Positions 2,474-54,225 of a stretch of 64,000 bases of DNA are shown here, piece by piece. Made by a program: the position numbers and the translations under genes. The DNA comes from Deltaproteobacteria bacterium (lineage in GTDB: Bacteria > Desulfobacterota > Syntrophia > Syntrophales > UBA8958): contig JAPLJZ010000268.1 in NCBI GenBank assembly GCA_026388335.1, forward strand, positions 1,872 through 65,871. Direction: 5' to 3'. A model generated the notes under the pieces. The model worked only from the letters and a program-made list of their open reading frames with translations. It searched no databases and was not told the origin of the DNA. The stretch's first letter is position 1; each line of letters starts with the position of its first letter.

Positions 2474-3694
2474 TCACCCCAGCATTTCCAAGAAGGCTTC
2501 TATTCTATTCATAATATTGGCGTCAGAATACACCCTCTCGTCTGTGTGGTCTCCATCCAGAACCAATGACGGCAGATTAAGTTCTTTTTGTATTACCTTC
2601 ACTGCATCCGGTATACCAACGGAAAGGACCCGGCAACTTCGGTTAGAATGAGCAATGATGCCGTCAATGTGATACTCCTTTATATCCACAAGCATCTTCT
2701 CGATTTGGTCATCTAGACTTGAATTGAGCTCGCCTTCTAATGCTTTGCGAGCTAAACTTTCTATCGGTTTAGCGCCATCCATTTTCGTAGTGCCCCATAT
2801 ATATTGGGTGTAGTCGCTTAGGGGAAACACACAACCCCTTTTCTCAAAATATCCAAAGAGCCCCAAATTGAACCAGAAGGGGATGTTTATCCACATGAGG
2901 CGGTGTTTCTCCTCTTCCTTTGTGAATATACCGATTCCGTCAGTTACGCGTTGCTTCGTTTCATCATAAACTGTTTTTATAACATCTACACCTTCCTGTT
3001 TTCCAACAAGGGCTATCAACACAAACAGGGCATTGCTGATATCAGTCAAGTTCACGGGACAGGGCTCCGCTTTCTGGAGATCCAGCAGCTTATGCCAGTA
3101 ATCAACTACCTCCCCGCTCAACGTTACCGCCTGTGACAATTTCTCATGGGTTATCTTGGTTCCCGCGATATCCTCTACCTGAATTATCGCCGCTTCGATC
3201 TCTCTGATGGCGTACGCGAGGTAATAATCAGGCATCGCTTGTGGTTCCATAACCCGTGGTGTGTTTATGTAGATCATGGGTATCTTATAAATTTCATGAA
3301 GCGCGTCCCACCATTTAAAATAGTGGGTGCAGGCAGAGCTTGTCAATAATAGCAAATCCGGCCTTCCCAAACCACCGAAGGGAGGATTCTCTTTAGAATC
3401 GTAAACATAACCTAAATTGTTCCGGCAATAAGAGCATATATCAGGGGCATAGTTGTGGGCCTCAGCGGTTTCACAGTATTTTCTTGACAAATGCTTGACA
3501 GCAGAAACAGCGGCATAGTTCTCCGGGAAGGCAGGCTGAATACCAGCCGCGTAGGCTATCTCTACTAAGGGGTTTGGAGCCATGAGTGCATATCCCATAG
3601 GCCTGTTGGTCTGGATATTATTATAATGACTCTCTATCGCTGCGCTTATTATTTTGTTGAATGCCGGACGTTCCCGCTTTGTCTTCTCTGTCAT
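2474..3694 (-). CDS. 2-hydroxyacyl-CoA dehydratase / benzoyl-CoA reductase B/C-type family subunit
   Basis: 406-aa ORF with a GGGAGG RBS. Cys-rich segments (DICSYCRNNLGY, LLLTSSACTHY) and the overall layout are typical of the HGD-D family. It is translationally coupled to the upstream paralog. Confidence 0.75.
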   Translation of the reverse strand: MTEKTKRERPAFNKIISAAIESHYNNIQTNRPMGYALMAPNPLVEIAYAAGIQPAFPENYAAVSAVKHLSRKYCETAEAHNYAPDICSYCRNNLGYVYDSKENPPFGGLGRPDLLLLTSSACTHYFKWWDALHEIYKIPMIYINTPRVMEPQAMPDYYLAYAIREIEAAIIQVEDIAGTKITHEKLSQAVTLSGEVVDYWHKLLDLQKAEPCPVNLTDISNALFVLIALVGKQEGVDVIKTVYDETKQRVTDGIGIFTKEEEKHRLMWINIPFWFNLGLFGYFEKRGCVFPLSDYTQYIWGTTKMDGAKPIESLARKALEGELNSSLDDQIEKMLVDIKEYHIDGIIAHSNRSCRVLSVGIPDAVKVIQKELNLPSLVLDGDHTDERVYSDANIMNRIEAFLEMLG

Positions 3695-3697
3695 TTT

Positions 3698-4828
3698 TCA
3701 ACCTCCCTTAGCATTCAACATTTCAATAAAGGCTTCCACCCTTGTTCGTAATGGCGCCATGTCAGTCAGATAGTCAGTCTCAATGTGCAGTGTTGGCAGA
3801 TCAAATTTTTCTCTTATCTTTAGATCCAGGTTGGGGTAATCAAACTTCTCCGCTTCGCAGTTCCTGTTGATGGCGAATATGACTCCATGGACGTTGCTTT
3901 CCATAACCATCTCTGAAATATATGTGAATCTGTCAGCGTTCGCGGTATTGAATGAACAGGGAACCATAACATACCTCCTGGCAAGAGCTGTCAGCGGCCC
4001 CTCCATTGTGTCATTCACGGCGGTGAAAACTGATCTGGAACCATTATTGACATCGTCGGCAACAACGCAGGCGCCGCAGTCTTCAATCATCTCCCACAGA
4101 CGGGCATCCGTTACGCAACCACCTGTTACAAGCAGCCGCACCTTCGCCCTGGGACCCTGGGATCGCTTAGAAAGTTCGGCCAAGAGCTGTTCCATCAGTC
4201 CACTATGCTCTTCTTTGTCAAGGATAAAGCTTGACATAACTACCTTTAAGGTTTCCGTACTGGAAATAATGGGTGATTCCGCTTTCTTTAATTCGCAGAC
4301 CTTCCTCAGTAGCCCCCTATTTCTATTATAAACCCTAATTGCATTATGCAAGGAATCCTCAGATATTTCTTTTCCTGTGAACCCCTCAAGGTCATTCTTG
4401 ATCCTGCCAAGTTCCTTAGCAAAGAAATCAATAGCATTCTCACTCCTCTTCCATGGCACATTTATATAATCAATAAACGGATAGGGATTATGGCGTTTCC
4501 ATGTTTGATACAAAAACGTTACCGCTTCACAACTTCTGGGTATGATTGCGCCATCAAAATAGGAATATTTCCCTTTTATCACCTGGTCCCAAACAGCCCG
4601 TACATTAGAGCATAGATATGTTTGTAGGTGGGCATCACCCTCAGTGATAAAATCGTCAATGTACGGAAATAGACGAACAGGGCGAAGCCCGGCTGCATAT
4701 ATCAATTCCTCAGGAACAACAGGATGAAAAATCCCGATCATTTTGCATCCTGTTTCCTCCCGCGTTTTGGATAGGACCATAGATGCGTCCTGAATAACCC
4801 TGGCCATATGCTCAAGAATATTAGACAA
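3698..4828 (-). CDS. 2-hydroxyacyl-CoA dehydratase family subunit (paralog of the downstream gene)
   Basis: 376-aa ORF with a TTG start 9 nt after GGAGG. Segments IGIFHPVVPEELIYAAGLRPVRLF and YLCSNVRAVWD are typical of HGD-D family subunits. Confidence 0.75.
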   Translation of the reverse strand: MSNILEHMARVIQDASMVLSKTREETGCKMIGIFHPVVPEELIYAAGLRPVRLFPYIDDFITEGDAHLQTYLCSNVRAVWDQVIKGKYSYFDGAIIPRSCEAVTFLYQTWKRHNPYPFIDYINVPWKRSENAIDFFAKELGRIKNDLEGFTGKEISEDSLHNAIRVYNRNRGLLRKVCELKKAESPIISSTETLKVVMSSFILDKEEHSGLMEQLLAELSKRSQGPRAKVRLLVTGGCVTDARLWEMIEDCGACVVADDVNNGSRSVFTAVNDTMEGPLTALARRYVMVPCSFNTANADRFTYISEMVMESNVHGVIFAINRNCEAEKFDYPNLDLKIREKFDLPTLHIETDYLTDMAPLRTRVEAFIEMLNAKGG

Positions 4829-5122: not shown

Positions 5123-5617
5123 CTATCCAAGCTGCAGTTCAAATCGCTGCTCGTTGACCTCTGTGCCCCATTGAGATCCCTTCTGTTGTTCGACAAGCCT
5201 AAAGCCAGCCTTTTCGTAGAGATGTCGCGCGGCGTTGAGGCCTTCAAACGTGCAAAGGTAGACCCGTTTGTAGCCCGTGCCGTGACAGAATCCGATGGCG
5301 GTATCTATTAGTTGTCTACCAATGCATTTTCCCCGTAACGCCTCAGACATGATAAACCAGCGCAAATGCACACCAGTGTCTTCGGCATTGAGTCCATCGA
5401 TCGCAATAGAGCCTTCAATGCGCCCTCCCTGCATTGCGATCCAGAAGCCGTCCCGATGTTGATCATATCGCCCAAGGAACTCCGCCAGTTCGGTGGCAAC
5501 TCTTGCCTCAAAAAAAAGGCTGAAATTCCAGTGCCGATGATAGTACGTGCCATGAAGCTGGGTCACCCTCCCAATCGAACCAGGGACGTAGCCCTTGATG
5601 ATCTCGACATCCGTCAT
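5123..5617 (-). CDS. GNAT family N-acetyltransferase
   Basis: Acetyl-CoA-binding motif region RGKCIGRQLIDTAIGFCHGTGYKRVYLCTFEGLNAARHLYEKAGF. The start was moved to MTDVEII because GGAG lies 8 nt upstream of it. Confidence 0.85.
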   Translation of the reverse strand: MTDVEIIKGYVPGSIGRVTQLHGTYYHRHWNFSLFFEARVATELAEFLGRYDQHRDGFWIAMQGGRIEGSIAIDGLNAEDTGVHLRWFIMSEALRGKCIGRQLIDTAIGFCHGTGYKRVYLCTFEGLNAARHLYEKAGFRLVEQQKGSQWGTEVNEQRFELQLG

Positions 5618-5684
5618 AGAACATCTCCACAAGAATGATAATACGTGGTGTAACTTATTTTCATCATTTTCATCATGCGAATGC

Positions 5685-5969
5685 TCACACCAGCTTCCAG
5701 CCTGTGAGGCTGAGTATCTTCAGACCAAACAGGTTTTGAAGGCTGATAGTTAGGGGAAAGGGTGAATGGAAACAGTTCGGGAGGTAAACTTTAACTTGGT
5801 TCACGATGGACATGCTATAATCTCCGGCGTTTTTAGGTATGCCCCGCCCCACGGACGGGCCTAGATTGATACGTCCTCAACAAAGACCTGCACGCCCTGT
5901 AGAGAACAGGTGCAAAGCCCCGCCTTTTGTCAGCAAGTAATCACGAGCGTTATCGGTTATGGTAAGCAT
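5685..5969 (-). CDS. candidate small selenoprotein (C-U motif), 94 codons with in-frame UGA at codon 31
   Basis: ATG at 5969 lies 8 nt after GAAGGAG. Translation: MLTITDNARDYLLTKGGALHLFSTGRAGLC-[TGA 5877-5879]-GRINLGPSVGRGIPKNAGDYSMSIVNQVKVYLPNCFHSPFPLTISLQNLFGLKILSLTGWKLV-stop. The frame stays open for 63 codons after the TGA, and a GC-rich hairpin follows the TGA. Confidence 0.55.
5843..5859 (-). promoter_or_regulatory. candidate SECIS-like hairpin downstream of the in-frame UGA
   Basis: The mRNA reads CCCGUCC-GUG-GGGCGGG, a 7-bp stem including one G-U pair. The apical loop contains GU. The hairpin starts 17 nt after the UGA. Confidence 0.4.
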
Positions 5970-6222
5970 TACGTTATCTCCTTCAATCATCCATTGTCGA
6001 TATTTAGTTAACACGAAGCTGGTTACATTCTACACGAATGATATATTGGCCGTCAAGTATTTGCACTTTTCATTCGGCATTCAATAAAGTGCTTTGGAGA
6101 TCCATTATCAACATTTGTATTTAAGGTGCGTTAGCAGGATAAGGGTTCTCTGAGGCTCGCTATTTTCAGAATGCGATAATCCTAAATCCGATCTTTCGGA
6201 ATCTCTCTATTGAATCTTTTTC

Positions 6223-9145: not shown

Positions 9146-11392
9146 ATGAATTACTTTACGGCTAAAAAATTTTCTTTTATTTCAAAGACCCTGCCTCAAG
9201 ACACCTTTGGAGTGATAAGCATGAAAGGTTCGGAGGGGATATCCAAACCCTACGAATTTGAGATCATGCTTGTTTCGGACAATCTCGAAATAGATTTCGA
9301 TGTGATCATGCAAAACACCGCCAAGCTCGTATTCCACCGGGAAACAGGGGCCGATGCGATTTACAACGGCATCATTACCCATTTTGAGCATCTCCATGCG
9401 ATCGGAGAATATGCCTTTTACCGGGCCTATCTTGTCCCCCGCCTCTGGTGGCTGTCCATTACCAAGCATAACCAGATCATCCTCGATAAATCCCTGCCGG
9501 AGTTTGCCCAGATGGTGCTTATCGATGGCGGCCTTACACCGAATGATTTTGAATTTCGCCTCCAGGGCGCCTATGATCCTATTGAATACGTATGCCAGTA
9601 CAATGAAAGTCACCTGAACTTTCTCTCCCGCTGGCTGGAACGGGAGGGCATCTACTATTATTTCGACCAGACGGAAGGTGGCGAAAAGGTGATCTTCACG
9701 GACACACGCCTGGCCCACACCGAACTCGCCGCAGGCAAGGTCCTCACCTATTCACCCCCTTCGGGACTTGAAGCCCTGCGCGCCGCAGAAGTGGTGGCAT
9801 CCTTTCATTGCCGCCGGAGCCTGATGCCGGAAAAGGTGTTTCTGAAGGATTACAACTATCGAAAGCCTTCCCTGGAAATGAGCGGGGAGGCGAATGTGGA
9901 CCCCCAGGGACGGGGAACGGTTTTCTTTTACAACGAACACATCAAAACACCGGAAGAGGGAAAGCGCCTGGCCAAGATCAGGGCCGAAAGCATTCTCTGC
10001 CGCCGGGAATTATATCTTGGCGAAGGGTCGGTTCCGTTCATGCTCCCCGGTTTTACCTTTACCCTCGAAAATCACTACCGGAAAGGGGTCAACCAGAGCT
10101 ACCTGATTACGGATATCGACCATGAAGGCAATCAGACCGGCTATCTGTTGTCAGGTATCAGCGTGGGCGGGGGCAGCGATGAAGAAAATAAAGTCAATTA
10201 CCGCAACTATTTCACCGCCATCCCCGGGTCGGTCCAGTTCCGGCCGGAGGCGAAGGCGGAAAAACCGAAAATTTCCGGCACGATCTCGGGAATGATCGAT
10301 GCGGCGGGGAGCGGTCAATACGCAGAGCTTGATCCCCAGGGCCGGTACAAGATCATCTTTCCCTTCGATCTTTCCGGCCGGACCGGCGGGAAGGCGTCGA
10401 ACTGGGTGCGGATGGCTCAGCCTTATGTCGGCTCCGATCACGGTATGCATTTCCCCCTCCACAAAGGAACGGAGGTGCTCATCACCTTCATCGACGGCGA
10501 TCCCGACCGGCCCATCATTGCCGGAGCGGTGCCGAATCCGGAGACCCCGAGCGTCGTCAGCGGTGACAATCAGTCCATGTCGGTCCTCAATACGGCCGGC
10601 AAAAACAAGATTGCCATCGAGGATCAGGCGGGGAGTGAACGCATCCTCCTCCATTCACCGAATCAGGGCAGCTTCATCCGCATCGGCGCTCCTAACGACC
10701 CACCACCGCCGGATGATTATTCTTCTTCGGGCGGCGACGCCGATGTCGGGTTGAATTTTTCCACAGCCTACCAACTCACGGTTACAGCGGGTACGTCAAA
10801 TGAGGTTATCCTCGGGGAAGAGACGTCGACCATCTTTGGATTGGCTGTAGACACTATTCTTGGTGCGAATTTCGATACCTGCGTTGGAGAAAGGATGATT
10901 ACAAGTGCCATTGCCTCTCAGGAGTTTTCGCCCACAAAGTGGAGCTACAGCGCCACGGATACAGCAATAGAAGGGCTGAAGGACAGGGTTACCGCGGCGG
11001 AAAATACGATAGTTACTGAGGCGGCCAAGGTAGTCGCCACCGATCTCAAGGTCACGACACTGAGAACGGATGTTGATTTTGACAAAACTCATGTGTCGGC
11101 GGTTGTTACTCAAGCCATAGCAGACAAGACCGTAGCCCTTGCCACAATACTGGAGGTGACCGCTTCAGAGGAAAAGGCCATAGCTGCCTCGACCAAGGCG
11201 ATTGCCGCCTCGACCAAGACCCTGGGCGAGCGAATCGATGTAATAGGGCAAGACACCAAGACCGCCGGTGACGAAATAAAAGTCCTTGCTTCCAAATTAC
11301 ATACCTGCGCCGAGGCCACGTACACGATCGCGTCGCAGACGAATGTTCTTGTTGAAGAGAGTACCGTTGCCGCCCTCGTCAGCATTCTTTAA
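9146..11392 (+). CDS. vgrG: type VI secretion system spike protein VgrG (TssI)
   Basis: 748 aa. The N-terminus FSFISKTLPQDTFGVISMKGSEGISKPYEFEIMLVS is the typical VgrG/Rhs-element Vgr start. The gp5-like region NWVRMAQPYVGSDHGMHFPLHKGTEVLITFIDGDPDRPII is present. A C-terminal extension of about 200 aa has no recognisable enzymatic motif. Confidence 0.93.
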   Translation: MNYFTAKKFSFISKTLPQDTFGVISMKGSEGISKPYEFEIMLVSDNLEIDFDVIMQNTAKLVFHRETGADAIYNGIITHFEHLHAIGEYAFYRAYLVPRLWWLSITKHNQIILDKSLPEFAQMVLIDGGLTPNDFEFRLQGAYDPIEYVCQYNESHLNFLSRWLEREGIYYYFDQTEGGEKVIFTDTRLAHTELAAGKVLTYSPPSGLEALRAAEVVASFHCRRSLMPEKVFLKDYNYRKPSLEMSGEANVDPQGRGTVFFYNEHIKTPEEGKRLAKIRAESILCRRELYLGEGSVPFMLPGFTFTLENHYRKGVNQSYLITDIDHEGNQTGYLLSGISVGGGSDEENKVNYRNYFTAIPGSVQFRPEAKAEKPKISGTISGMIDAAGSGQYAELDPQGRYKIIFPFDLSGRTGGKASNWVRMAQPYVGSDHGMHFPLHKGTEVLITFIDGDPDRPIIAGAVPNPETPSVVSGDNQSMSVLNTAGKNKIAIEDQAGSERILLHSPNQGSFIRIGAPNDPPPPDDYSSSGGDADVGLNFSTAYQLTVTAGTSNEVILGEETSTIFGLAVDTILGANFDTCVGERMITSAIASQEFSPTKWSYSATDTAIEGLKDRVTAAENTIVTEAAKVVATDLKVTTLRTDVDFDKTHVSAVVTQAIADKTVALATILEVTASEEKAIAASTKAIAASTKTLGERIDVIGQDTKTAGDEIKVLASKLHTCAEATYTIASQTNVLVEESTVAALVSIL

Positions 11393-11455
11393 GGAGAGGA
11401 CAGGTGATGGCAAGCTTGGTGGGAGGTCGGATAAGCCTCCCTCGGCAAGGAAACG

Positions 11456-14400
11456 ATGAAAGTCTATAAAAAAAACCAGCATTCCCTCTTCGTGAAACCC
11501 TTCGGGGTGCAAGATAAACTCTATCTGGCCCTGACGGTTTTTATCTATTTCGACCTTATGGCCCCCGATGATCCCCTTACAGAACAGGAGTTGTGGAAAA
11601 CGATCCCCGATCAGTTAAAGCCCACTCCCCTCCTTGATGCCGGGATGCCGAAGCCGCGTGGAGAGGTGCTCCTTACGGGGTCTTGTTTTTCCCCCCGGGG
11701 CACAGTCAGAAACGCCTCCACTGTTTCGTTCCGGGTTGGAGAACTTCGCAAGGAAATAGCCGTTTTCGGCGACCGCTGGTGGCAGAAAACCAAGGCCAAC
11801 GTCAACATTATTACCGATCCGGTCCCCTTTTCTGAGCTGCCCCTTACCTGGCAAAATGCCTTCGGGGGAGAGGATTTCCCTGCCAATCCCCTCGGGAAGG
11901 GCATTACCCCCGTGCTTGGTAAAGATGGAGAACTACGGACGCCGCTGCCGAATATCGAATACCGGGACAGGATCATCGGCTCGCCGTCCGATCGGCCTGC
12001 ACCCGCCGGCTTCGACGTCGTCGATATGATGAGGCCGCAGCGGCAGAAAAAGACCGGTACCTACGACGATAAATGGCTAAAGGAGAGGTGGCCCTACTTC
12101 CCCGATGACATGGATTATGAATATTTCAACTGCGCCCCGGCCGATCAGTATATTGATGCTTTCTTCCAGGGCGGTGAGGCGATCGAAATCCTCAACATGC
12201 ACCCCGATATGCAGCTTATCTCATCGCACCTACCTGAGCTGCGCATTCGCTGCTTCGTCACAAAGAAGGAAGCGCCGAAATCGACGGTGGAGGTTTTCCA
12301 GAATGTCACCACCCGTGTGGATACGTTGTGGCTTTTCCCAACGATCCTGCGCGGGGTAGTCATGTACCGGGGCACGACGGAGATATACGATGAAGAATAT
12401 GAAGACGTCCTGAGGATCTTTATTGCCACGGAGCGACTTAAAGATCAGCCCCTTACCCTGGAACATTACCAGGTAGAGCAGAAAAAGGCCATGGACACGA
12501 CCGTTACCGTGGATATGGCGCCCCTCCAGGAGGCGGCAAAGAAGATCGGCAAGATGATGAAACGGGTCAAGAAGATCCCGAAAGACATCGATCATTCCCT
12601 GAAAATGGCCACCGGTCATGCCCCGGTCATGCCCCGAACCCCTGCCGAGACAGCAGCCGTCGGCCAACAGGTCATTGGAGACAACCTCGCACTCCTTGAC
12701 CGGCTGGAGGCCCAGTCCCGGGATCTCCACGGCAAATATGGCCATCTTGCCAAAATCGACCTGACCATGTTCGAACGGATGCGGGGATCCCTGCGGGCGA
12801 CCTCGACCAGGATCGGTGAAAGCCTGACTCATATTGAAGCGGTGACGGCGAAGGTGAGGCAGGACGCAACGACGGCCCTCAAGGCAGGGGCAGCGAAGGT
12901 AAGGATGAACGTCCCCGCCGCCCTCCTCGATAAGGCCGGCTTTGCCCCGGAGGGATTGCTGGACCAACAGAAAAAGATCAACCCCTGGCACGATCGCGGC
13001 TTTCCCCTGGTTGTGCAATGCCGGCGAAACCTTGAGGCCGACCGTGTCGCCCTGAACTCCCTGCATGCCCTCGGCATCGAGAAAGATACGATCAAGCGGG
13101 CCTGGTTGGGCATAAACCCTGGGGAAATAAAAGATTCCCGGGCTATCTGGGGCCTGAAGCCGTCCCCTGATGCGCCAAAAGGCATCGCCCTGAAGGGCGA
13201 TGCGGCGAGCGGCGACGAGCTTGTCATTCCGGCCGGTCTGGTCATGCCCCGTTTCAACGAGGCCGTTTTAAACAGAATTCTGATTCTGCCCGGAAACCAG
13301 CAAGAAGATGGGGGCTGGCAAAAAGACGGAGACCTGGCCGGATGTGAGCTTGTGGACGGTTCCGACAAAACGCCGCTGCTCTTCATTGCCGAGGATAGCG
13401 CCCCTGTCATCGCGGTAACGGATGAGCTTCAGGCCCTCCTCCTGGAACAGGAGATCGGCGACGCCTGTTCGGTTATCGTCCTGGCCCGACCCGATGAGAA
13501 ACCGTCCAAGGATGGCGACGCCCAGATCAAAGGGGCGGAGGCATTCCTGGTCGTCATGCCGGAAAAGGCGGCGCCCGGCGCCAAGGATTGGGAGGCATGG
13601 AAGAAGGCCTATCCCGATTGCCTGCCCTACGCCCTTCCCAAGGGCGCGAATCTCTTCGCCGCCGCAAGAATGGGCGTGGATATCCGGGCCTGGATCATGG
13701 ATGCCTTGCCGAAGGAGTTCAGAAAGAGGCACAAGATCGCCCCCTCACTGCCGGAGCCGGGTAAACATCCCACCGCCGAGGATCTGACCGTGCCGATTCC
13801 CGCCATCGACGTCAAGGCGATTGTTGACAAATCGAGCAAGGAGATTCACGGTTACTTGGATGGGAAGATGGGCGACCTGGTTGCCAAGCAGGGACAGGTC
13901 AAGGCGGAACACCTCGCTCGGGTCGGGGAGGCCCTGAAAAAGGCCGGTCTCAACCCTGATGATGTATTGAAAATCAATTCTAACCCCGAGCCCGTCTCCA
14001 TCGCCGCGGCGGGAGATAGCATGATGGCAAAGCTCGCTCTCGGCGCCGCCGCCCTGAAAAAACAGGGAACCCTTACCCCGGACATTCAACGGAAGTTCAG
14101 CGAAATGTCGGCTGATATCAAGAAGATGAGCCAGGAGGGCCAGGCCCGTTTCGATGCGGGCATGGCAAAACTTGCCGCCGCGAAGGAGACTGCCGCCGCC
14201 GCGAAGGCGAAGACACTGGCCCAGGAGATGCCCCCGGGGGCAAAGGCAACTTTTGCCAAGTTTGGCATGGATACGGACCGCATGGTAAAGAGGACTCGGG
14301 AAGAGGTTATCGCGATGCACGGCCGGGGCGAGAGTCTTGCCTTTGCCAGGCTCGCCGGGGTGGACCTGTCCGGTCTCGACCTGTCCGGCATCGATCTTAA

Positions 14401-15301
14401 TCAGGCCCAATGTCAAAAGACCAATTTTGCCGGTTCCATCCTCGATGGCGCCGACTTTACCCAGGTCATGGCCATGGAGGCGGACTTTACGGGCGCCTCC
14501 TTGCAGAAGTCAAAGCTGGACAAGTGCATGCTCATCAAGGCGAAACTCAAAAAGGCCGACCTGCGGGCGGCCGTAATGAACCAGGCAACCATCAAGGACG
14601 CCGATCTGACCGAGGCCGACCTGTCGGGAAGCACCATCTATATGACGACGATCATGAAGACTTCCCTGGTGAAGGCGAAATTTAACGACGTCAAGGCAAA
14701 TCTGTCCGTCTTCTCCGACGGAGACGCCTCCGATACGGCATTCAAGGGAGCCCGGCTGGAGAGGTGTCTCATCCGCAGACTGACCCTTGACCGGGCAAGC
14801 TTCTCTCAGGCCGCCCTCCCCTCGACCACGTTTATGGAGGTAAGCGGCGAGGGGGTCAGTTTTTACGGGGCGGATATGCACAAAACCCGCATGGGCAATA
14901 ATTCGCGTCTCCCCGGGACCGACCTTCGTAATGTCACCTTTACCCAGGGGTCGCTGCGGGAAACCGATCTTTCCGGGAGCAAATTTACCGGATCATGCCT
15001 CGACGGGGCGCTTATTGAGAAGTGCGACCTCCACGATGCCGACCTCTATGGCGTTTGCGCCAAGACGTGCCGGTTTGCCAAATCAAATCTGGAGGGGGCG
15101 GAGATGCGGCATATCAACCTTTTTTGCGGCTCCCTGAGGAAATCAAGGCTGGTCAACGCCGACTTGCGGGGGGCAAACCTCTATGCCGTCGATTTCTACA
15201 AGGCCGTATTCGGCGCGACACAGATGGATGACGCGAATGTGAAGAAATCGCTCCTCTTCAAGCGCACGGATGCGCTGAGAAGCGAAAAGGGGATTACATG
15301 A
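11456..15301 (+). CDS. DUF2169-domain protein fused to a long central region and C-terminal pentapeptide repeats
   Basis: 1281 aa directly after vgrG. The N-terminal roughly 330 aa resemble the DUF2169 VgrG-adaptor family by position and sequence. The last roughly 320 aa are A(D/N)LxX pentapeptide repeats (for example ADLRAAVMNQATIKDADLTEADLSGS). Confidence 0.8.
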   Translation: MKVYKKNQHSLFVKPFGVQDKLYLALTVFIYFDLMAPDDPLTEQELWKTIPDQLKPTPLLDAGMPKPRGEVLLTGSCFSPRGTVRNASTVSFRVGELRKEIAVFGDRWWQKTKANVNIITDPVPFSELPLTWQNAFGGEDFPANPLGKGITPVLGKDGELRTPLPNIEYRDRIIGSPSDRPAPAGFDVVDMMRPQRQKKTGTYDDKWLKERWPYFPDDMDYEYFNCAPADQYIDAFFQGGEAIEILNMHPDMQLISSHLPELRIRCFVTKKEAPKSTVEVFQNVTTRVDTLWLFPTILRGVVMYRGTTEIYDEEYEDVLRIFIATERLKDQPLTLEHYQVEQKKAMDTTVTVDMAPLQEAAKKIGKMMKRVKKIPKDIDHSLKMATGHAPVMPRTPAETAAVGQQVIGDNLALLDRLEAQSRDLHGKYGHLAKIDLTMFERMRGSLRATSTRIGESLTHIEAVTAKVRQDATTALKAGAAKVRMNVPAALLDKAGFAPEGLLDQQKKINPWHDRGFPLVVQCRRNLEADRVALNSLHALGIEKDTIKRAWLGINPGEIKDSRAIWGLKPSPDAPKGIALKGDAASGDELVIPAGLVMPRFNEAVLNRILILPGNQQEDGGWQKDGDLAGCELVDGSDKTPLLFIAEDSAPVIAVTDELQALLLEQEIGDACSVIVLARPDEKPSKDGDAQIKGAEAFLVVMPEKAAPGAKDWEAWKKAYPDCLPYALPKGANLFAAARMGVDIRAWIMDALPKEFRKRHKIAPSLPEPGKHPTAEDLTVPIPAIDVKAIVDKSSKEIHGYLDGKMGDLVAKQGQVKAEHLARVGEALKKAGLNPDDVLKINSNPEPVSIAAAGDSMMAKLALGAAALKKQGTLTPDIQRKFSEMSADIKKMSQEGQARFDAGMAKLAAAKETAAAAKAKTLAQEMPPGAKATFAKFGMDTDRMVKRTREEVIAMHGRGESLAFARLAGVDLSGLDLSGIDLNQAQCQKTNFAGSILDGADFTQVMAMEADFTGASLQKSKLDKCMLIKAKLKKADLRAAVMNQATIKDADLTEADLSGSTIYMTTIMKTSLVKAKFNDVKANLSVFSDGDASDTAFKGARLERCLIRRLTLDRASFSQAALPSTTFMEVSGEGVSFYGADMHKTRMGNNSRLPGTDLRNVTFTQGSLRETDLSGSKFTGSCLDGALIEKCDLHDADLYGVCAKTCRFAKSNLEGAEMRHINLFCGSLRKSRLVNADLRGANLYAVDFYKAVFGATQMDDANVKKSLLFKRTDALRSEKGIT

Positions 15302-16359
15302 GGGGATCAGAGGTTTTACAGGCCATAGGCGCCAATGAAACGCTGGCAGAAGTAGATCTCTCGGGCATAGATCTCGCCGGGGTCGATCTTACGGGCGGCC
15401 GTTTTGAAGACTGCACGTTCAAAGGCGGTGATCTTTCCGGCGCTAAGATTCTCAAGACGGGCTTCCGGCGATGTGACTTTTCCGGGGTAAGGTTTCACGG
15501 CACCGACCTCACCAAGGCAAATTTCATGAAGATGAACTTTGCCGGGGCCTCCTTTCAAGGGGCGACGCTCCATGAGACCCTCTTTACCCATACGAACCTG
15601 GCGCAGGCCGATTTTTCCGGGTGCTTCGTAAGCTGGACCCTGATGCAACACGCCGATCTGACGGGGGCGAACTTCAAAAATACCCGGTTTGAAAAGGCGC
15701 TCCTCCAACACACAAAACTTATCGGCGCTGATTTTTCCGGGGCCGACCTCCTCAAGGTCATGTTCAACGGCTCCGACCTTACGGATGCCAAATTTAAGGG
15801 CGCCCACTTCAGTAAGATACTCTTCCAGGGATGTAAACTTGCCGGCCAGGATTTCAAGGGCGCCCGTTTCATGCAGGTGAATGCGGCCCAGGCGGACCTG
15901 ACGGGGGCCGATTTTTCCGGCGCGGAGCTTACTTATTCTACGTTTATGGAGGCCGATTTGACCGGCGCCAACCTGACCGGCGTCCGGGCTCAAAACGCCC
16001 TTTTCAAGGGGGCGGTGTTAAAAAAGACCGTGTTTAAAGAGGCCGATCTGTCCCATGCCTTTTTCGGGGAATGTGATGCCGGGGGGGCCGATTTCACGGG
16101 GGCAAAACTCATGAACGGCGTCTTCACCAAAGCGAAATGCCGGGCGGCGGTATTCGTGGATGCCTTTTGCGCCTATGCCGATTTTTCTCACGCCGACCTG
16201 ACGGCGGCCGATTTTTCCGGCGCTAATCTTTACGCGGCAAAGTTACACCGCATTATCGAAGACCATACCAAATGGGACAGGGCAAACAAGCTGCTCGTAA
16301 AGGGGACGGATGAAGAAACGGCAGAGGCTGAAGACTGGGCTCCGCCGGTGGAAAAGTGA
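15298..16359 (+). CDS. pentapeptide repeat-containing protein
   Basis: 353 aa with an ATGA start/stop overlap with the upstream gene. It consists almost entirely of pentapeptide repeats (ADFSGADLLKVMFNGSDLTDAKFKGAHF...). Confidence 0.9.
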   Translation: MRGSEVLQAIGANETLAEVDLSGIDLAGVDLTGGRFEDCTFKGGDLSGAKILKTGFRRCDFSGVRFHGTDLTKANFMKMNFAGASFQGATLHETLFTHTNLAQADFSGCFVSWTLMQHADLTGANFKNTRFEKALLQHTKLIGADFSGADLLKVMFNGSDLTDAKFKGAHFSKILFQGCKLAGQDFKGARFMQVNAAQADLTGADFSGAELTYSTFMEADLTGANLTGVRAQNALFKGAVLKKTVFKEADLSHAFFGECDAGGADFTGAKLMNGVFTKAKCRAAVFVDAFCAYADFSHADLTAADFSGANLYAAKLHRIIEDHTKWDRANKLLVKGTDEETAEAEDWAPPVEK

Positions 16360-16394
16360 AAATAAATAAGTGAGCCATATACGGAGGAAAAACC

Positions 16395-17024
16395 ATGCAA
16401 AGGCTGTTGAAAAAAAAGGAGTATCCCCAGCCGTATCTTGAGTACGGTATGGTAGTGGAAGAGGGGGATCTGTTGAGAGTGGAGACTGCGCTGGGCAGTT
16501 ACCCGGCCCTGAAGGCGGCAAGTTGTCTCGTGAGGCCGAAGCAGGGAGATTCCGTCCTTACTGTTTTCGATGCAGACGGAAACTGTTTTATTCTCTCCGT
16601 GCTTATGCAGAATCAGGCGGCAGGGCAGATCAATGAGATCGTTCTGGAGGGGGATGCGAGTCTTCACATCCACAATGGGGGACTTACGATCTCGGCTGAT
16701 GATGAGGTGTCGGTCGTGTCGGACAGGCTTTCCCTGGCAGCCAGGACCGGAAATGCCGCCTTCGAGGAATGTTCATTCTTGGGGGAGTCCTTTTTTGCTG
16801 AGTTTGGAAGCATCAAGACGGTGGCCGGGAAAGTGGAAAATATCTTCCAGCAGCTTACGGAAAAGCTCATCGATGCTTTCAGATTTGTGAAGGATCACGA
16901 GGAAATACAGACCGGATCGACGCGCTATCTTGTCGATACAAACCTTACCATGCATTCCAAAAATGCCATGCATGTCGCCGAGGAAATCGTCACGATCAAC
17001 GCCGGGCAGGTACATCTCGGATAA
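16395..17024 (+). CDS. DUF3540-like protein of the vgrG/DUF2169/pentapeptide module
   Basis: 209 aa. It sits in the conserved position between the pentapeptide-repeat gene and the PAAR-like gene. The family call rests on synteny and size, from memory. Confidence 0.6.
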   Translation: MQRLLKKKEYPQPYLEYGMVVEEGDLLRVETALGSYPALKAASCLVRPKQGDSVLTVFDADGNCFILSVLMQNQAAGQINEIVLEGDASLHIHNGGLTISADDEVSVVSDRLSLAARTGNAAFEECSFLGESFFAEFGSIKTVAGKVENIFQQLTEKLIDAFRFVKDHEEIQTGSTRYLVDTNLTMHSKNAMHVAEEIVTINAGQVHLG

Positions 17025-17113
17025 AAACTCATACCCGCGATTTCGGGTACAATGAAGAATGAAAATAAGCACATAGTTGGAACAGTTTTTATGTAGAAGC
17101 TAAGGAGGTTGTT

Positions 17114-17518
17114 ATGTTCATGCTATCCCAGGGCGCGGGAATGAATATGGGTTTCCCCGATGTATGCATTACCCCCGTGGGTCCCATCCCGACCCCCATC
17201 CCTTACCCGGACATCAATATGTCGGCGACGACGGCCCCGGCAGCGTATAATATCCTTGTGGACTGCATGCCCTCGATCAATCAGCTTTCCATGGGGCTGG
17301 TAAGCTTCGGCGACTGTACCGGCGTCATGGGCGGAGTCGTTTCCCATCTGATGGACGGGCAGACGGAATATCTGATGGGGTGTGTGACCATATTTGTTGA
17401 CGGTGCTCCGGCACAGCGACTGACGAGTGTTACCGGCCAGAACAGCCTGGTCATGCTCCCCAACACGCCGGGCATGTGCGCCTGTCCCAGTCAGGTCACG
17501 GTGCTGACCCTCGGGTGA
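17114..17518 (+). CDS. PAAR-like (DUF4150) spike-tip protein without toxin extension
   Basis: 134 aa. GFPDVCITPVGPIPTPIPYPDI and VTIFVDGAPAQRLTSVTGQN match the DUF4150/PAAR-like fold signature. RBS is AAGGAGG. Confidence 0.8.
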   Translation: MFMLSQGAGMNMGFPDVCITPVGPIPTPIPYPDINMSATTAPAAYNILVDCMPSINQLSMGLVSFGDCTGVMGGVVSHLMDGQTEYLMGCVTIFVDGAPAQRLTSVTGQNSLVMLPNTPGMCACPSQVTVLTLG

Positions 17519-27578: not shown

Positions 27579-28064
27579 TTAAGCTTTCGGCGCCTTCCAG
27601 TTGTCTTCCGCCTCAATTCCGTCCGGCGTGTACGTCCAGACTACATCCTCATAGGTGAAGGCGATTTCCTGCATGTGCTTGAAGGGCTTATTCTCCTCCA
27701 GGAAGGTGTAGGGGAAAAATTCCCGGGAGTTTACAATGATCGCTTCCTTCAGCTTAATCGTGAAGTATTTTTCCTCCTGCCCTTTTTCACTGATCCGGAA
27801 GAAGGTGATCTCTGCATCGAGATGTTCACCGGAGCAGCAGGCCTGGAAGAGCTTGGGGGTGTGCTTGCCCATGTTAGTGATGAGCTTCAGGGGCAGATGG
27901 ATGCGCTGGCCCGTGGGCAAACCCGTATGGGTGTCCTTGGGAATTTCCACTGCATGGTCCATCTGATAGCAGATAATCAGATTTTCCCGGCCCTGCTGGG
28001 TGCAGTCTCCCTGAATTTCTCCCTGATTCTTGCCCGTTACCTTCATGTAAATTGTCATTGCCAT
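27579..28064 (-). CDS. hcp: type VI secretion tube protein Hcp (TssD), orphan copy
   Basis: 161 aa, MAMTIYMKVTGKNQGEIQGDC...HTGLPTGQRIHLPL, typical of the Hcp1 family. It differs at 12 positions from the copy at 39219-39704 by manual alignment. Confidence 0.93.
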   Translation of the reverse strand: MAMTIYMKVTGKNQGEIQGDCTQQGRENLIICYQMDHAVEIPKDTHTGLPTGQRIHLPLKLITNMGKHTPKLFQACCSGEHLDAEITFFRISEKGQEEKYFTIKLKEAIIVNSREFFPYTFLEENKPFKHMQEIAFTYEDVVWTYTPDGIEAEDNWKAPKA

Positions 28065-39218: not shown

Positions 39219-39704
39219 TTAAGCTTTCGGCGCTTTCCAGTTGTCTTCCGCCTCGATGCCGTCCGGCGTGTACGTCCAGATGATATCCTCATAGGTGAAG
39301 GCGATTTCCTGCATGTGCTTGAAGGGTTTGTTCTCCTCCAGGAAGGTGTAGGGGAAGAATTCCCGGGAGTTTACAATTATCGCTTCCTTCAGTTTAATGG
39401 TAAAGTATTTTTCCTCCTGCCCTTTTTCGCTGATCCGGAAGAAGGTGATCTCCACATCGGCATGTTCACCGGAGCAGCAAGCCTGGAAGAGCCCTGGTGT
39501 TTGTTTGCCCATGTGGGTGATGACCTTCAGGGGCAGATGGATGCGCTGGCCTGTGGGCAGACCCGTATGGGTGTCCTTGGGGATTTCCACTGCGTGATCC
39601 ATTTGATAGCAGAGAATCAGTCCTTCCCGGCCCTGCTGGTTGCAGTCACCCTTAATTTCGCCCTGATTCTTGCCCGTTACCTTCATGTAAATCGTCATTG
39701 CCAT
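39219..39704 (-). CDS. hcp: type VI secretion tube protein Hcp (TssD), operonic copy
   Basis: 161 aa, paralog of 27579-28064. The shared sequence includes the RBS region and the first nucleotides after the stop. Confidence 0.93.
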   Translation of the reverse strand: MAMTIYMKVTGKNQGEIKGDCNQQGREGLILCYQMDHAVEIPKDTHTGLPTGQRIHLPLKVITHMGKQTPGLFQACCSGEHADVEITFFRISEKGQEEKYFTIKLKEAIIVNSREFFPYTFLEENKPFKHMQEIAFTYEDIIWTYTPDGIEAEDNWKAPKA

Positions 39705-53262: not shown

Positions 53263-54225
53263 TTAGTATGCCTCTCCCTTGAGGTCCTCGACGTACAACT
53301 GGGCGGTGTAGGCGGCTGTTGCCCCATCGCCGCAGGCCGTAATGACCTGGCGGAGGGATTTGTGGATGCAGTCTCCGCAGGCGAAGATCCCCGGGGTTGA
53401 GGTTTTCATGTCCCGATCGACGATGATGGCACCGTCCTTCTCGAGGGCAACCAGGTCTTTGACAAGGGTTGTCTGGGGAATCAGACCCACGAAGATGAAG
53501 ACGCCGGCGGCGGGAATCTTCCGGGTTGCGCCGGTGACTACATCCTTTATTCTTATCCACTCTACTCCGCCCCCGCCGCCGATTTCTTCCGCCACGGCAT
53601 TCCAGGCCATCTCGATTTTAGGATTGGCAAAGGCCCGTTCCTGGAGGATACCTGTGGCCCGCAAGCGGTTGCGCCGGTGGACAATGGTTACCTTGGTCGC
53701 AAAATGGGTCAGAAAAATGGCTTCCTGTACCGCCGTATTGCCGCCGCCTACGACCGCCACTTCCCGTTTCCGGTAAAAGGGGCCGTCACAGGTAGCGCAA
53801 TAAGAGACGCCCCGTCCGGCAAATGCCTCCTCTCCGGGAATGCCAAGCTGACGCCAGTAGGCGCCGGTGGCCATGACCAGAGAAAGGGTTTCGCATGTCC
53901 GGCTGTCCGTCAGGACTCTCCAGGCCTTCTTTTCTCCATGATTAATAGTCTCCAGGGTCTGGACGTCGGCGGTGATGCATTCCAGGCCAAAGGCGACTGC
54001 CTGTTTCCGGAAGCTTTCCACAAGCTCAAAACCGTTGATACCCGCAGGGATGCCGGGATAATTTTCGATGAGATCGGTAACGGTGATTTGACTAACCGTC
54101 GAGGCCCCGGAGATGAGCAAGGCCTTCAGGCCGGCGCGGGCGGCATAAAGGCCGGCGGTATAGCCCGCCGGTCCTCCCCCGATGATCACGATATCATAAA
54201 GGGCTGATTCCGTTGATGGATTCAT
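53263..54225 (-). CDS. trxB: thioredoxin-disulfide reductase
   Basis: Contains IIGGGPAGYTAGLYAAR, the redox-active CATCDG, and GGGNTAVQEA. Confidence 0.93.
   Translation of the reverse strand: MNPSTESALYDIVIIGGGPAGYTAGLYAARAGLKALLISGASTVSQITVTDLIENYPGIPAGINGFELVESFRKQAVAFGLECITADVQTLETINHGEKKAWRVLTDSRTCETLSLVMATGAYWRQLGIPGEEAFAGRGVSYCATCDGPFYRKREVAVVGGGNTAVQEAIFLTHFATKVTIVHRRNRLRATGILQERAFANPKIEMAWNAVAEEIGGGGGVEWIRIKDVVTGATRKIPAAGVFIFVGLIPQTTLVKDLVALEKDGAIIVDRDMKTSTPGIFACGDCIHKSLRQVITACGDGATAAYTAQLYVEDLKGEAY

What the first reader, a model, noticed from the sequence alone, without database searches (positions are those of the whole stretch)
5685..5969. Unannotated small gene with in-frame UGA after Cys (C-U motif) and downstream hairpin: candidate selenoprotein
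The ORF track shows nothing here, but the - strand has several supporting features:
- a strong RBS (GAAGGAG) 8 nt before the ATG at 5969;
- 30 sense codons ending ...GRAGLC;
- a TGA at 5877-5879, after which the same frame stays open for 63 more codons (GRINLGPSVGRGIPKNAGDY...) to a TGA at 5685-5687;
- a GC-rich hairpin, CCCGUCC-GUG-GGGCGGG, starting 17 nt after the internal UGA, with GU in the apical loop at roughly the distance expected for a bacterial SECIS.

A Cys-Sec redox pair in a roughly 94-aa protein is typical of small thiol/selenol oxidoreductase-like selenoproteins of anaerobes. I recall a family annotated as a CC/Se-motif (seleno)protein with a similar layout, but I cannot verify that here.
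Basis: partly seen in the sequence, partly recalled or inferred. Interest (0 to 1): 0.68.

Follow-up and report, generated by a model that had tools for sequence, protein, structure and literature searches.

The report
Small unannotated Cys-Sec selenoprotein gene

Summary
On the minus strand there is an RBS, an ATG at 5969, 30 codons ending in Cys, a TGA at 5879-5877, 63 more codons, and a stop at 5687-5685.

The read-through product matches NCBIfam NF041239 (CC/Se motif family (seleno)protein) at 63.3 bits against a cut-off of 40, and the match spans both sides of the UGA. I examined 40 UGA-forms in MAGs and metagenomes, and all have Cys-TGA at this codon. Fourteen of 16 full-length representatives have Cys-Cys there.

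Purifying selection is equally strong before the UGA (dN/dS 0.28) and after it (0.23). The hairpin 24 nt after the UGA meets all four published bacterial SECIS criteria. It shows compensatory changes and suppressed synonymous variation, and four Cys-forms lack it.

A metatranscriptome contig runs across the UGA. TGA is the normal stop in this genome, so a UGA-sense genetic code is excluded.

An AlphaFold model of a Cys-form homolog resembles IscA/SufA. The Cys-Sec pair sits where those proteins have their first cluster ligand, and the C-terminal CxC is absent.

Not tested: the selA/B/C/D genes (none in the window) and selenium incorporation.

Verdict: a new, mis-called member of a known family. 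Interest is low to moderate.

The parts
6027..6056 (-). Sigma-70-like promoter, TTGACG - 18 nt - TAGAAT
   Evidence: Consensus scan gives 10 of 12 matches. RNA contig coverage ends at 6004, downstream of it. This is a pattern match only and has not been shown to function.
5978..5984 (-). Ribosome-binding site GAAGGAG, 8 nt before the ATG
   Evidence: Read directly from the sequence.
5880..5969 (-). Codons 1-30 (MLTITDNARDYLLTKGGALHLFSTGRAGLC), ending in Cys30
   Evidence: Translation. Matches NF041239 profile positions 3 onward. dN/dS is 0.28 among six close UGA-forms.
5877..5879 (-). In-frame UGA, codon 31, the proposed selenocysteine codon
   Evidence: All 40 UGA-forms examined have TGA at this codon directly after Cys. 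It aligns with the second Cys of a CC pair in 14 of 16 full-length representatives and in four Cys-form genes read at the DNA level.
5688..5876 (-). Codons 32-94 (GRINLGPSVGRG...LTGWKLV)
   Evidence: dN/dS is 0.23. Codons 32, 33 and 36, which lie upstream of the alternative GTG start, keep their amino acid with free third-position change. Matches the NF041239 profile to position 91 of 91.
5685..5687 (-). True stop codon, TGA
   Evidence: TGA is also the stop of 20 of 44 long ORFs in the window.
5841..5860 (-). SECIS-like hairpin. In the window's minimum-energy fold it is a 7-bp stem (5859-5843) with loop GUG (5852-5850). In the family consensus it is a 4-bp lower stem, a 1-nt 3' bulge, a 3-4-bp upper stem and the loop C-GUG-N.
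   Evidence: Local fold is -14.7 kcal/mol. RNAalifold predicts the same helix on 28 unique sequences. Cells paired are 88% against 25-58% when the partners are slid, with compensatory changes at two pairs. Loop G and U are invariant in 28 of 28. The hairpin is not formed in four Cys-forms.
5753..6004 (-). Stretch covered by metatranscriptome contigs
   Evidence: Run X13: an exact contig at 5840-5933 spans the UGA and the hairpin, an exact contig covers 5753-5869, and a variant-strain contig covers 5840-6004. The neighbouring genes have no coverage. Contigs carry no strand information, so the strand is inferred from the gene.

Best explanation
Window 5969-5685 (minus strand) is one gene for a 94-residue selenoprotein of the CC/Se motif family (NCBIfam NF041239, Pfam PF28096).

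Inferred decoding step: as the ribosome reaches UGA31, a SelB-type elongation factor carrying Sec-tRNA(Sec) binds the stem-loop whose apical GU lies 24-26 nt downstream and inserts selenocysteine in place of termination. This is established knowledge of bacterial Sec decoding applied to this gene.

Inferred protein properties: the product is a single small beta-rich domain with an IscA/SufA-like fold. The adjacent Cys30-Sec31 pair sits at the tip of a beta-hairpin, at the place where A-type Fe-S carriers hold their first cluster-ligand cysteine. The carrier's C-terminal Cys-x-Cys is absent.

Most likely working part: the vicinal thiol/selenol pair. It could cycle through a selenenylsulfide, as the adjacent Cys-Sec of high-Mr thioredoxin reductase does. 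It could instead ligate a soft metal or an Fe-S centre, probably across a dimer because one chain offers only two ligands.

Shown here: the gene structure, family membership, Sec/Cys alignment, selection on both halves, an RNA structure conserved specifically in the UGA-forms, and transcription across the UGA. Inferred: Sec insertion itself, the fold of the window protein (the model is of a 50%-identical Cys-form), and the chemistry.

The confidence given (0.88) is for the gene being a single Sec-encoding member of this family. The IscA-like scaffold and the chemistry of the dyad are less certain, at roughly 0.5-0.6.
For: Family:
- NF041239 at 63.3 bits (cut-off 40), E 1.6e-17, protein residues 2-91 on profile positions 3-91 of 91.
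- All 27 representatives found by exhaustive HMMER hit only this model.

Sec/Cys pairing:
- Five genomic relatives were found. Four Syntrophales-type MAGs have C-TGA, and Dendrosporobacter has CC.
- Five divergent representatives that gene callers truncated to 55-60 aa all have a homologous N-terminus followed by C-TGA.
- A metagenome scan whose pattern allowed any TGN at codon 31 returned 29 family members, all with TGA.
- 14 of 16 full-length representatives have CC at the aligned position.

Translation past the UGA:
- dN/dS is 0.28 upstream and 0.23 downstream, with dS up to 1.5.
- Third positions vary freely in codons 32, 33 and 36.

SECIS:
- All four published criteria are met: loop 3-9 nt, upper stem at least 4 bp, G then U at the start of the loop, spacing 16-37 nt, and MFE no higher than -7.5 kcal/mol (criteria quoted from PMC13188914).
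- The window values are a 3-nt loop GUG, a 7-bp stem, 24-nt spacing and -14.7 kcal/mol.
- RNAalifold finds the same helix independently.
- Covariation occurs at pairs 27-37 (GC 19, AU 4, CG 1) and 28-36 (UA 17, UG 9, CG 1, AU 1). No shuffle out of 500 reaches the observed score.
- Entropy at four-fold third positions is 0.54 bit in hairpin codons against 1.45 bit elsewhere, p = 0.0013.
- Four Cys-forms keep only 3-5 of 7 pairs and vary the Val codon.

Expression: metatranscriptome contigs cover only this gene and cross the UGA.

Genetic code: TGA terminates 20 of 44 long ORFs in the window.

Lineage: the closest relatives are Syntrophales-type MAGs, and Syntrophus aciditrophicus was credited with 19 selenoproteins (PMC1794560).

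Fold:
- AlphaFold model of the collinear CC-form P0011, pLDDT 88.6.
- The only meaningful Foldseek hits are IscA 1r94 (E 2e-3), SufA 2d2a (TM 0.64, probability 1.0) and DsrR 2k4z (TM 0.61).
- hhalign places Cys30 on IscA Cys35.
Against: - No selA, selB, selC or selD gene, and no second selenoprotein gene, is visible in the 64-kb window or in any fetched locus. Sec-decoding capacity in this organism is therefore assumed from lineage, not shown.
- The hairpin lies inside a well-conserved peptide (GPSV-R/G-x-G), so part of its conservation is due to the protein. Four of 28 sequences break pair 27-37.
- Only four Cys-form genes were available as the RNA control.
- The IscA link rests on a predicted structure of a homolog, with marginal Foldseek E-values. 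hhalign gives only 5.6% probability. No HMM link to PF01521, TIGR00049 or TIGR01911 was found.
- Gene neighbourhood is not conserved across the family, so it offers no functional anchor.
- Logan RNA contigs carry no strand and can contain DNA.
Confidence: 0.88

Rival explanations
1. The UGA is a true stop and the locus holds two independent small genes: a 30-aa peptide and a 55-aa protein that starts at GTG 5852. This is how gene callers read it.
For: Public gene calls give a 30-aa ORF on contigs identical to the window and 55-60-aa ORFs on relatives.
Against: Codons 32-39, which lie between the UGA and the GTG, keep their amino acids while their third positions vary freely. No Shine-Dalgarno sequence precedes GTG 5852. 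That GTG is the invariant loop of the hairpin. Cys-form homologs are single uninterrupted 92-97-aa proteins, and the curated family HMM spans both parts.
Confidence: 0.03
2. The gene is a pseudogene of a CC-family gene, inactivated by a TGY-to-TGA nonsense mutation.
For: A single base change separates a Cys codon from TGA. A few metagenomic copies do carry frameshifts (L019, L033, L037, L039).
Against: The TGA is present in all 40 UGA-forms examined, from diverged lineages that are 40-88% identical. Purifying selection downstream is as strong as upstream. An RNA structure is maintained specifically next to the TGA. The locus is transcribed while its neighbours give no signal.
Confidence: 0.02
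3. UGA31 is read through without selenocysteine. This could happen through a UGA-sense genetic code (Trp or Gly), through near-cognate suppression, or by insertion of Cys from a mis-charged tRNA(Sec) when selenium is scarce.
For: The Sec machinery was not seen in the window. Cys insertion at Sec codons under selenium limitation is known in other systems (my own knowledge, not tested here).
Against: TGA is the commonest ordinary stop in this window, at 20 of 44 long ORFs, and it also ends this gene. That excludes a reassigned code. The aligned residue in homologs is Cys, the usual counterpart of Sec, and not Trp or Gly. A hairpin that fits the SECIS model is kept only in the UGA-forms.
Confidence: 0.04

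Closest known systems
CC/Se motif family (seleno)protein: NCBIfam NF041239 'Moor_selen_rel', Pfam PF28096 CC_Se_fam. [quoted passage not shown]
   Same: Full-length HMM match above the curated cut-off. About 94 aa. Vicinal Cys-Sec/Cys at residues 30-31. C-terminal GWK[LI][IV].
   Different: Nothing structural differs, so it is a member. This copy is not called in public gene predictions. In my text extraction of the review table the motif next to NF041239 reads 'CxxU', whereas all 40 UGA-forms I read have adjacent C-U.
A-type Fe-S carriers IscA/SufA (HesB/IscA fold; PDB 1r94, 1s98, 2d2a) and the Cys-less IscA-like DsrR (2k4z)
   Same: Predicted fold of a family member (SufA 2d2a_A TM 0.64, DsrR 0.61, IscA 0.44-0.47). 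N-terminal strand plus helix 'M-x-I-T-[IL]-[ST]-D-x-A'. Cys30 aligns with the carriers' first ligand, Cys35.
   Different: No C-terminal Cys-x-Cys pair and no detectable HMM similarity. The family has a second chalcogen residue directly next to the first one instead.
HesB-like selenoprotein (TIGR01911; motif UxGP per PMC13188914)
   Same: A small selenoprotein named for its relation to HesB/IscA, found in the same kinds of anaerobes.
   Different: The window protein does not hit TIGR01911 even at E <= 1. The motif here is C-U-G-R and not U-x-G-P.
Vicinal Cys-Sec redox centre of high-Mr thioredoxin reductase (Gly-Cys-Sec-Gly; Cys-Cys in the insect enzyme). From my own knowledge, not tested here.
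   Same: Adjacent Cys-Sec followed by Gly, with natural Cys-Cys variants. This suggests selenenylsulfide chemistry.
   Different: Unrelated fold and position. In TrxR the motif sits on a flexible C-terminal tail, whereas here it sits at an internal beta-hairpin tip.
Other 'CU' dipeptide selenoproteins listed in PMC13188914: MerB-like SaoL (NF040728), KCU-star/DUF466 (NF033934), and the Csac_0668 2Fe-2S-binding family
   Same: A Cys-Sec dipeptide, and truncation at the UGA in databases.
   Different: No sequence relationship detected.

Membership tests
CC/Se motif family (NF041239 / PF28096) | Whole-protein HMM score above the curated cut-off (40 bits), with near full-length coverage | tested here: met
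   63.3 bits, E 1.6e-17, residues 2-91 on profile positions 3-91 of 91. Sec was entered as Cys for the scan.
CC/Se motif family (NF041239 / PF28096) | Adjacent Cys-Cys or Cys-Sec at the conserved position | tested here: met
   Cys30-UGA31 aligns with CC in 14 of 16 full-length representatives and with C-TGA in every UGA-form examined.
Bacterial selenoprotein gene | In-frame UGA aligned with Cys in homologs, with coding conservation continuing downstream | tested here: met
   dN/dS is 0.23 after the UGA.
Bacterial selenoprotein gene | bSECIS as defined in PMC13188914 Fig. 2: 3-9-nt apical loop, 4-16-bp upper stem, G in the first two loop positions, 16-37 nt from the UGA, MFE <= -7.5 kcal/mol | tested here: met
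   Loop GUG, 7-bp stem, 24-nt spacing, -14.7 kcal/mol. Covariation and suppression of synonymous variation support it. Four Cys-forms lack it.
Bacterial selenoprotein gene | selA, selB, selC (tRNA-Sec) and selD present in the same genome | not testable with these tools
   None in the 64-kb window or in the fetched loci. The rest of the genome is not available. Lineage evidence only.
Bacterial selenoprotein gene | Selenium demonstrably incorporated at the UGA position | not testable with these tools
   Needs 75Se labelling or mass spectrometry.
A-type Fe-S carrier (IscA/SufA/HesB, PF01521) | HesB/IscA fold | tested here: inconclusive
   For a model of homolog P0011 (pLDDT 88.6), the only Foldseek hits with TM above 0.4 are IscA, SufA and DsrR, at E 2e-3 to 4. 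hhalign probability is only 5.6%.
A-type Fe-S carrier (IscA/SufA/HesB, PF01521) | Three conserved cluster-ligand cysteines: Cys35, and Cys99-x-Cys101 at the C-terminus | tested here: not met
   Only the first position is occupied (Cys30). The C-terminus is GWKLV and has no Cys.
A-type Fe-S carrier (IscA/SufA/HesB, PF01521) | Sequence-profile match to the family | tested here: not met
   No Pfam hit at E <= 1. No PDB hit at E <= 10 with the family profile.
HesB-like selenoprotein (TIGR01911) | HMM match | tested here: not met
   Only NF041239 is reported at E <= 1 and at E <= 10 for 27 members.

The most novel reading that the evidence does not exclude
The CC/Se family may be a previously unrecognised branch of the IscA/SufA fold. 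In this reading the C-terminal CxC ligands were lost, and a vicinal Cys-Sec (or Cys-Cys) pair at the Cys35-equivalent hairpin took over. The protein would then act as a dimeric selenium-containing metal or Fe-S chaperone or sulfur/selenium relay, and not as a thiol oxidoreductase. Subclade-specific placement next to NiFe-hydrogenase maturation genes (HycI, HupH), or directly downstream of the CstA transporter, hints at such accessory roles.
Probability: 0.2. Interest if true: 0.55.

Novelty: new member of a known kind. Interest (0 to 1): 0.3.

Why it matters
For annotation, the gene is missed or cut in two by standard gene callers, which give 30-aa and 55-aa fragments. This case shows the same truncation across dozens of freshwater, peat and sediment contigs. 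Counts of this family and of selenoproteomes in Syntrophales-type anaerobes are therefore too low.

For biology, the family has no studied function. Three results here give an experimenter concrete starting points:
- a SECIS supported by covariation;
- dominance of the Sec form in environmental data;
- a predicted IscA/SufA-like fold with the Cys-Sec pair at the carrier's first ligand site.

None of this overturns current understanding.

Tried and rejected
- The word-index homolog search with the U-to-C product found only one 55-aa fragment. It was too insensitive for this short, divergent family.
I worked around this with the exact 63 post-UGA codons and with a collinear Cys-form as the first row of the alignment.
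- A whole-segment fold z-score gave +0.29, which is uninformative.
- The scan for other in-frame-TGA genes in the window produced only off-frame noise and gene junctions, with no second selenoprotein.
- ARAGORN found no tRNA-Sec in the window or in 27 loci.
- A search for the NiFeSe hydrogenase motif in the loci found none.
A scan with a tighter alignment used only a CC pattern and found nothing. It was replaced by a degenerate DNA pattern.
- Rfam gave no hit at E <= 1.
- The family profile found nothing against PDB sequences.
- Conserved-operon idea: synteny with the window is limited to a GNAT gene in one MAG. Neighbours differ by subclade.
- Literature: the Haft preprint and the two papers the review cites for this family do not name it in their main text.
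- Rejected readings: two separate genes, a pseudogene, and an alternative genetic code (see the rival explanations).

Full report
**Observation**

- GAAGGAG lies at 5984-5978, followed by eight bases and the ATG at 5969.
- Thirty codons follow (MLTITDNARDYLLTKGGALHLFSTGRAGLC).
- TGA lies at 5879-5877.
- The same frame then stays open for 63 codons to the TGA at 5687-5685.
- The stem-loop CCCGUCC-GUG-GGGCGGG starts 17 nt after the internal TGA.

A mechanical ORF list shows only a 45-aa and a 55-aa fragment here. Gene callers on public contigs identical to this region call only the 30-aa piece that ends at the UGA.

**Family**

With Sec entered as Cys, the 94-aa product hits a single NCBIfam model, NF041239 'CC/Se motif family (seleno)protein'. 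The score is 63.3 bits against a curated cut-off of 40. The match covers residues 2-91 on profile positions 3-91 of 91, so it spans both sides of the UGA. My Pfam copy has no hit, but the precomputed label on relatives is PF28096 CC_Se_fam.

**Homologs and the Sec/Cys test**

A scan of one genome per species found five relatives.
- Four come from Syntrophales-type MAGs and are 78-88% identical. All carry ...GLC-TGA-GR[IV]NLGPSV....
- The Dendrosporobacter copy is 44% identical and has Cys-Cys at the same place.

A metagenomic relative, L001, has the same layout as the four MAG copies.

An exhaustive HMMER search with the exact 63 post-UGA codons found only 27 cluster representatives among 1.84 billion proteins. 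They fall into two length classes.
- About 94 aa. In these, my query starts at residue 32. Of the 16 in this class, 14 have CC aligned with Cys30-UGA31.
- About 55 aa. I could fetch DNA for five of these, and each has a homologous N-terminus, a Cys, and an in-frame TGA just upstream of the called start.

A metagenome scan with a degenerate DNA pattern allowed any TGN at codon 31 and left all third positions free. It returned 29 loci. All are family members and all have TGA.

**Is the part after the UGA translated?**

Among six close UGA-forms, pooled Nei-Gojobori dN/dS is 0.28 for codons 1-30 and 0.23 for codons 32-92. Pairwise dS reaches 1.5 while dN stays near 0.1. Codons 32 (Gly), 33 (Arg) and 36 (Leu) lie before the alternative GTG start at 5852. 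They keep their amino acid while all or most third-position bases occur. This rules out a separate 55-aa gene and a pseudogene.

TGA is the ordinary stop of 20 of 44 long ORFs in the window, and it also ends this gene. A UGA-sense genetic code is therefore excluded.

**The hairpin**

The review PMC13188914 (Fig. 2 legend) gives the bacterial SECIS criteria. The window element compares as follows:

| Criterion | Required | Window element |
|---|---|---|
| Apical loop | 3-9 nt | 3 nt (GUG) |
| Upper stem | 4-16 bp | 7 bp |
| G in the first two loop positions, usually followed by G or U | yes | G then U |
| Spacing from the UGA to the loop | 16-37 nt | 24 nt |
| MFE | <= -7.5 kcal/mol | -14.7 kcal/mol |

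Only 0.49% of the 2,261 TGA triplets in the window have as stable a fold at the same offset.

On 28 unique post-UGA segments (alignment A5), RNAalifold predicts the same helix independently. In the family consensus the helix has a 4-bp lower stem, a one-base 3' bulge, a 3-4-bp upper stem and a loop C-G-U-G-N. G and U are invariant in the loop.

The pair count gives the following.
- 88% of cells are paired, against 25-58% when the partners are slid by 1-3 columns.
- Pair 27-37 occurs as GC (19), AU (4) and CG (1), with four breaks.
- Pair 28-36 occurs as UA (17), UG (9), CG (1) and AU (1), with no break.
- No shuffle out of 500 reaches the observed covariation score.

Because the hairpin lies inside the conserved peptide GPSV(R/G)xG, I separated RNA constraint from protein constraint in two ways.
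- Third positions of four-fold-degenerate codons carry 0.54 bit of entropy in hairpin codons 37-43 and 1.45 bit elsewhere (Mann-Whitney p = 0.0013). The one variable hairpin position is the one that covaries.
- Four Cys-form genes encode almost the same peptide. They keep only 3-5 of the 7 pairs, use GTC, GTT, GTC and GTG for the loop valine, and do not fold the hairpin.

Rfam has no match here.

**Expression**

A sigma-70-like promoter (TTGACG, 18 nt, TAGAAT) lies at 6056-6027 on the minus strand.

The stretch occurs in freshwater and lake metagenomes. In one lake metatranscriptome, assembled contigs cover only 5753-6004. That is this gene and not its neighbours. One exact contig (5840-5933) crosses the UGA and the hairpin. 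A third contig differs at 15 positions. The eight listed are mostly synonymous changes or match residues seen in the homologs, so I take it to be a second strain. These contigs carry no strand information and could in principle include DNA. The restriction of coverage to the gene argues for RNA.

**What could not be shown**

The window and all fetched loci contain no tRNA-Sec, no recognisable sel gene among the ORFs I named, and no second convincing in-frame-TGA gene. Sec-decoding capacity is therefore inferred from the coherent UGA, SECIS and selection signal, and from lineage. The nearest relatives are Syntrophales-type, and Syntrophus aciditrophicus was credited with 19 selenoproteins (PMC1794560).

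**Protein and mechanism**

I modelled P0011, a 94-aa CC-form that is 50% identical and collinear with the window protein, using a 27-row family alignment. The model has mean pLDDT 88.6.
- The topology is a short strand, one helix (residues 6-14) and eight further strands.
- Residues 30-31 sit between strands 26-29 and 32-35, at a hairpin tip.

Against the PDB, the only matches with TM above 0.4 are IscA (1r94, E 2e-3; 1s98), SufA (2d2a, TM 0.64, probability 1.0) and the IscA-like DsrR (2k4z, TM 0.61). Every other hit has a TM-score of 0.26 or less.

Sequence methods do not see this link.
- The family profile finds nothing in PDB sequences.
- The 27 members hit only NF041239.
- A profile-profile comparison with PDB-verified IscA, SufA and Aq_1857 sequences gives only 5.6% probability. 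The alignment is collinear from residue 1, though, and it puts Cys30 on IscA Cys35.

The carriers' C-terminal Cys-x-Cys is absent. The family ends in GWK[LI][IV], and it has no other conserved Cys or His.

I therefore treat 'works on an IscA-like scaffold through a vicinal Cys-Sec pair' as the best mechanistic reading, and I do not file the protein as an A-type carrier. Selenenylsulfide redox cycling and metal or Fe-S ligation across a dimer both remain open.

**Context**

In the window the gene is followed by a GNAT acetyltransferase gene (5126-5632) and then a pair of genes like 2-hydroxyacyl-CoA dehydratase or benzoyl-CoA reductase (2477-4828). Divergently upstream lie a CGNR zinc-finger gene, a nitroreductase gene and a haloacid dehalogenase gene.

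Only one MAG shares the GNAT neighbour. Across about 45 family loci, neighbours are subclade-specific.
- CstA lies directly upstream in 13 loci.
- HycI and HupH lie upstream in 7 loci.
- DUF1540 and chorismate mutase lie downstream in several loci.
- DUF2284 lies upstream in two loci.

No family-wide partner emerges.

**Prior knowledge and verdict**

[quoted passage not shown] That review is the only paper in the searchable library that names it. I found no functional study.

The gene is a new, mis-called member of a known selenoprotein family.

Noticed in passing
Loci L011, L017, L020, L024, L025, L031, L033, L035, L036, L037, L040, L043, L044: In one subclade the CC/Se gene lies about 100 nt downstream of a CstA transporter gene (PF02554, 655 bits) on the same strand. 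It is often followed by a fusion of cNMP-binding, acetate kinase and PTAC domains. As I recall, E. coli cstA and btsT are followed by small DUF466 genes, and the review lists DUF466 as a 'KCU-star' CU selenoprotein family. If so, two unrelated small Cys-Sec proteins sit behind CstA-type transporters.
   Followed up: partly
Loci L018, L022, L023, L027, L041, L042, L045: In another subclade the gene follows a HycI-type hydrogenase maturation protease gene and a HupH_C gene, and it precedes a family-2 glycosyltransferase gene. This hints at a link to NiFe-hydrogenase maturation.
   Followed up: partly
L012/L013 1767-2413; L016 1713-2075; the P0004 locus: A third subclade has DUF1540 and type-1 chorismate mutase (CM_1) genes directly downstream, with MqnC/CofH-like radical SAM genes nearby.
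   Followed up: no
L007 860-952 (identical to window 5880-5972), and the 55-60-aa proteins P0001, P0003-P0005, P0009, P0021, P0024: Public gene predictions systematically split this family at the UGA. They give a 30-aa fragment, a 55-aa fragment starting at the GTG in the SECIS loop, or both.
   Followed up: yes
PMC13188914, Table 1: In the extracted table text the motif printed next to NF041239 is 'CxxU', but all 40 UGA-forms I read have adjacent Cys-Sec ('CU'). This is either a slip in the table or a column shift in the text extraction.
   Followed up: no
P0002 and P0017 (alignment A2): Two full-length representatives lack the second Cys. P0002 has Cys-Leu and P0017 has a gap with no CC. Some members have therefore lost the dyad.
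   Followed up: no
L019, L033, L037, L039: Four metagenomic copies have frameshifts downstream of the UGA. These are either assembly errors or decayed copies.
   Followed up: no
Window 9146-17515 and 27582-49736: The window carries a type VI secretion system. Named genes are VgrG (9146-11389), ClpV/TssH (33141-35840), TssF, TssC, TssM and TssK. Two Hcp/TssD copies have nearly identical N-termini (27582-28064 and 39222-39704). A 1,281-aa pentapeptide-repeat protein (11456-15298) follows VgrG and may be an effector.
   Followed up: partly
Window 2477-4828 (minus strand): A pair of genes resembles 2-hydroxyacyl-CoA dehydratase, benzoyl-CoA reductase or the double-cubane reductase family. Both score well below every equivalog cut-off, and I named no activator ATPase gene nearby.
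   Followed up: no
Window 5840-6004, run X13: A metatranscriptome contig differs from the window at 15 of 165 positions. The changes are synonymous or match residues seen in homologs (I34V, H20Y, L19V, N7K, T3A). A second strain is therefore expressing the same gene in the same lake sample.
   Followed up: partly
Window 53266-54225 (minus strand): A thioredoxin-disulfide reductase gene (TIGR01292, 366 bits) lies in the window. It is the only other dedicated thiol-redox gene I named there, it is 47 kb from the finding, and it shows no in-frame TGA.
   Followed up: no
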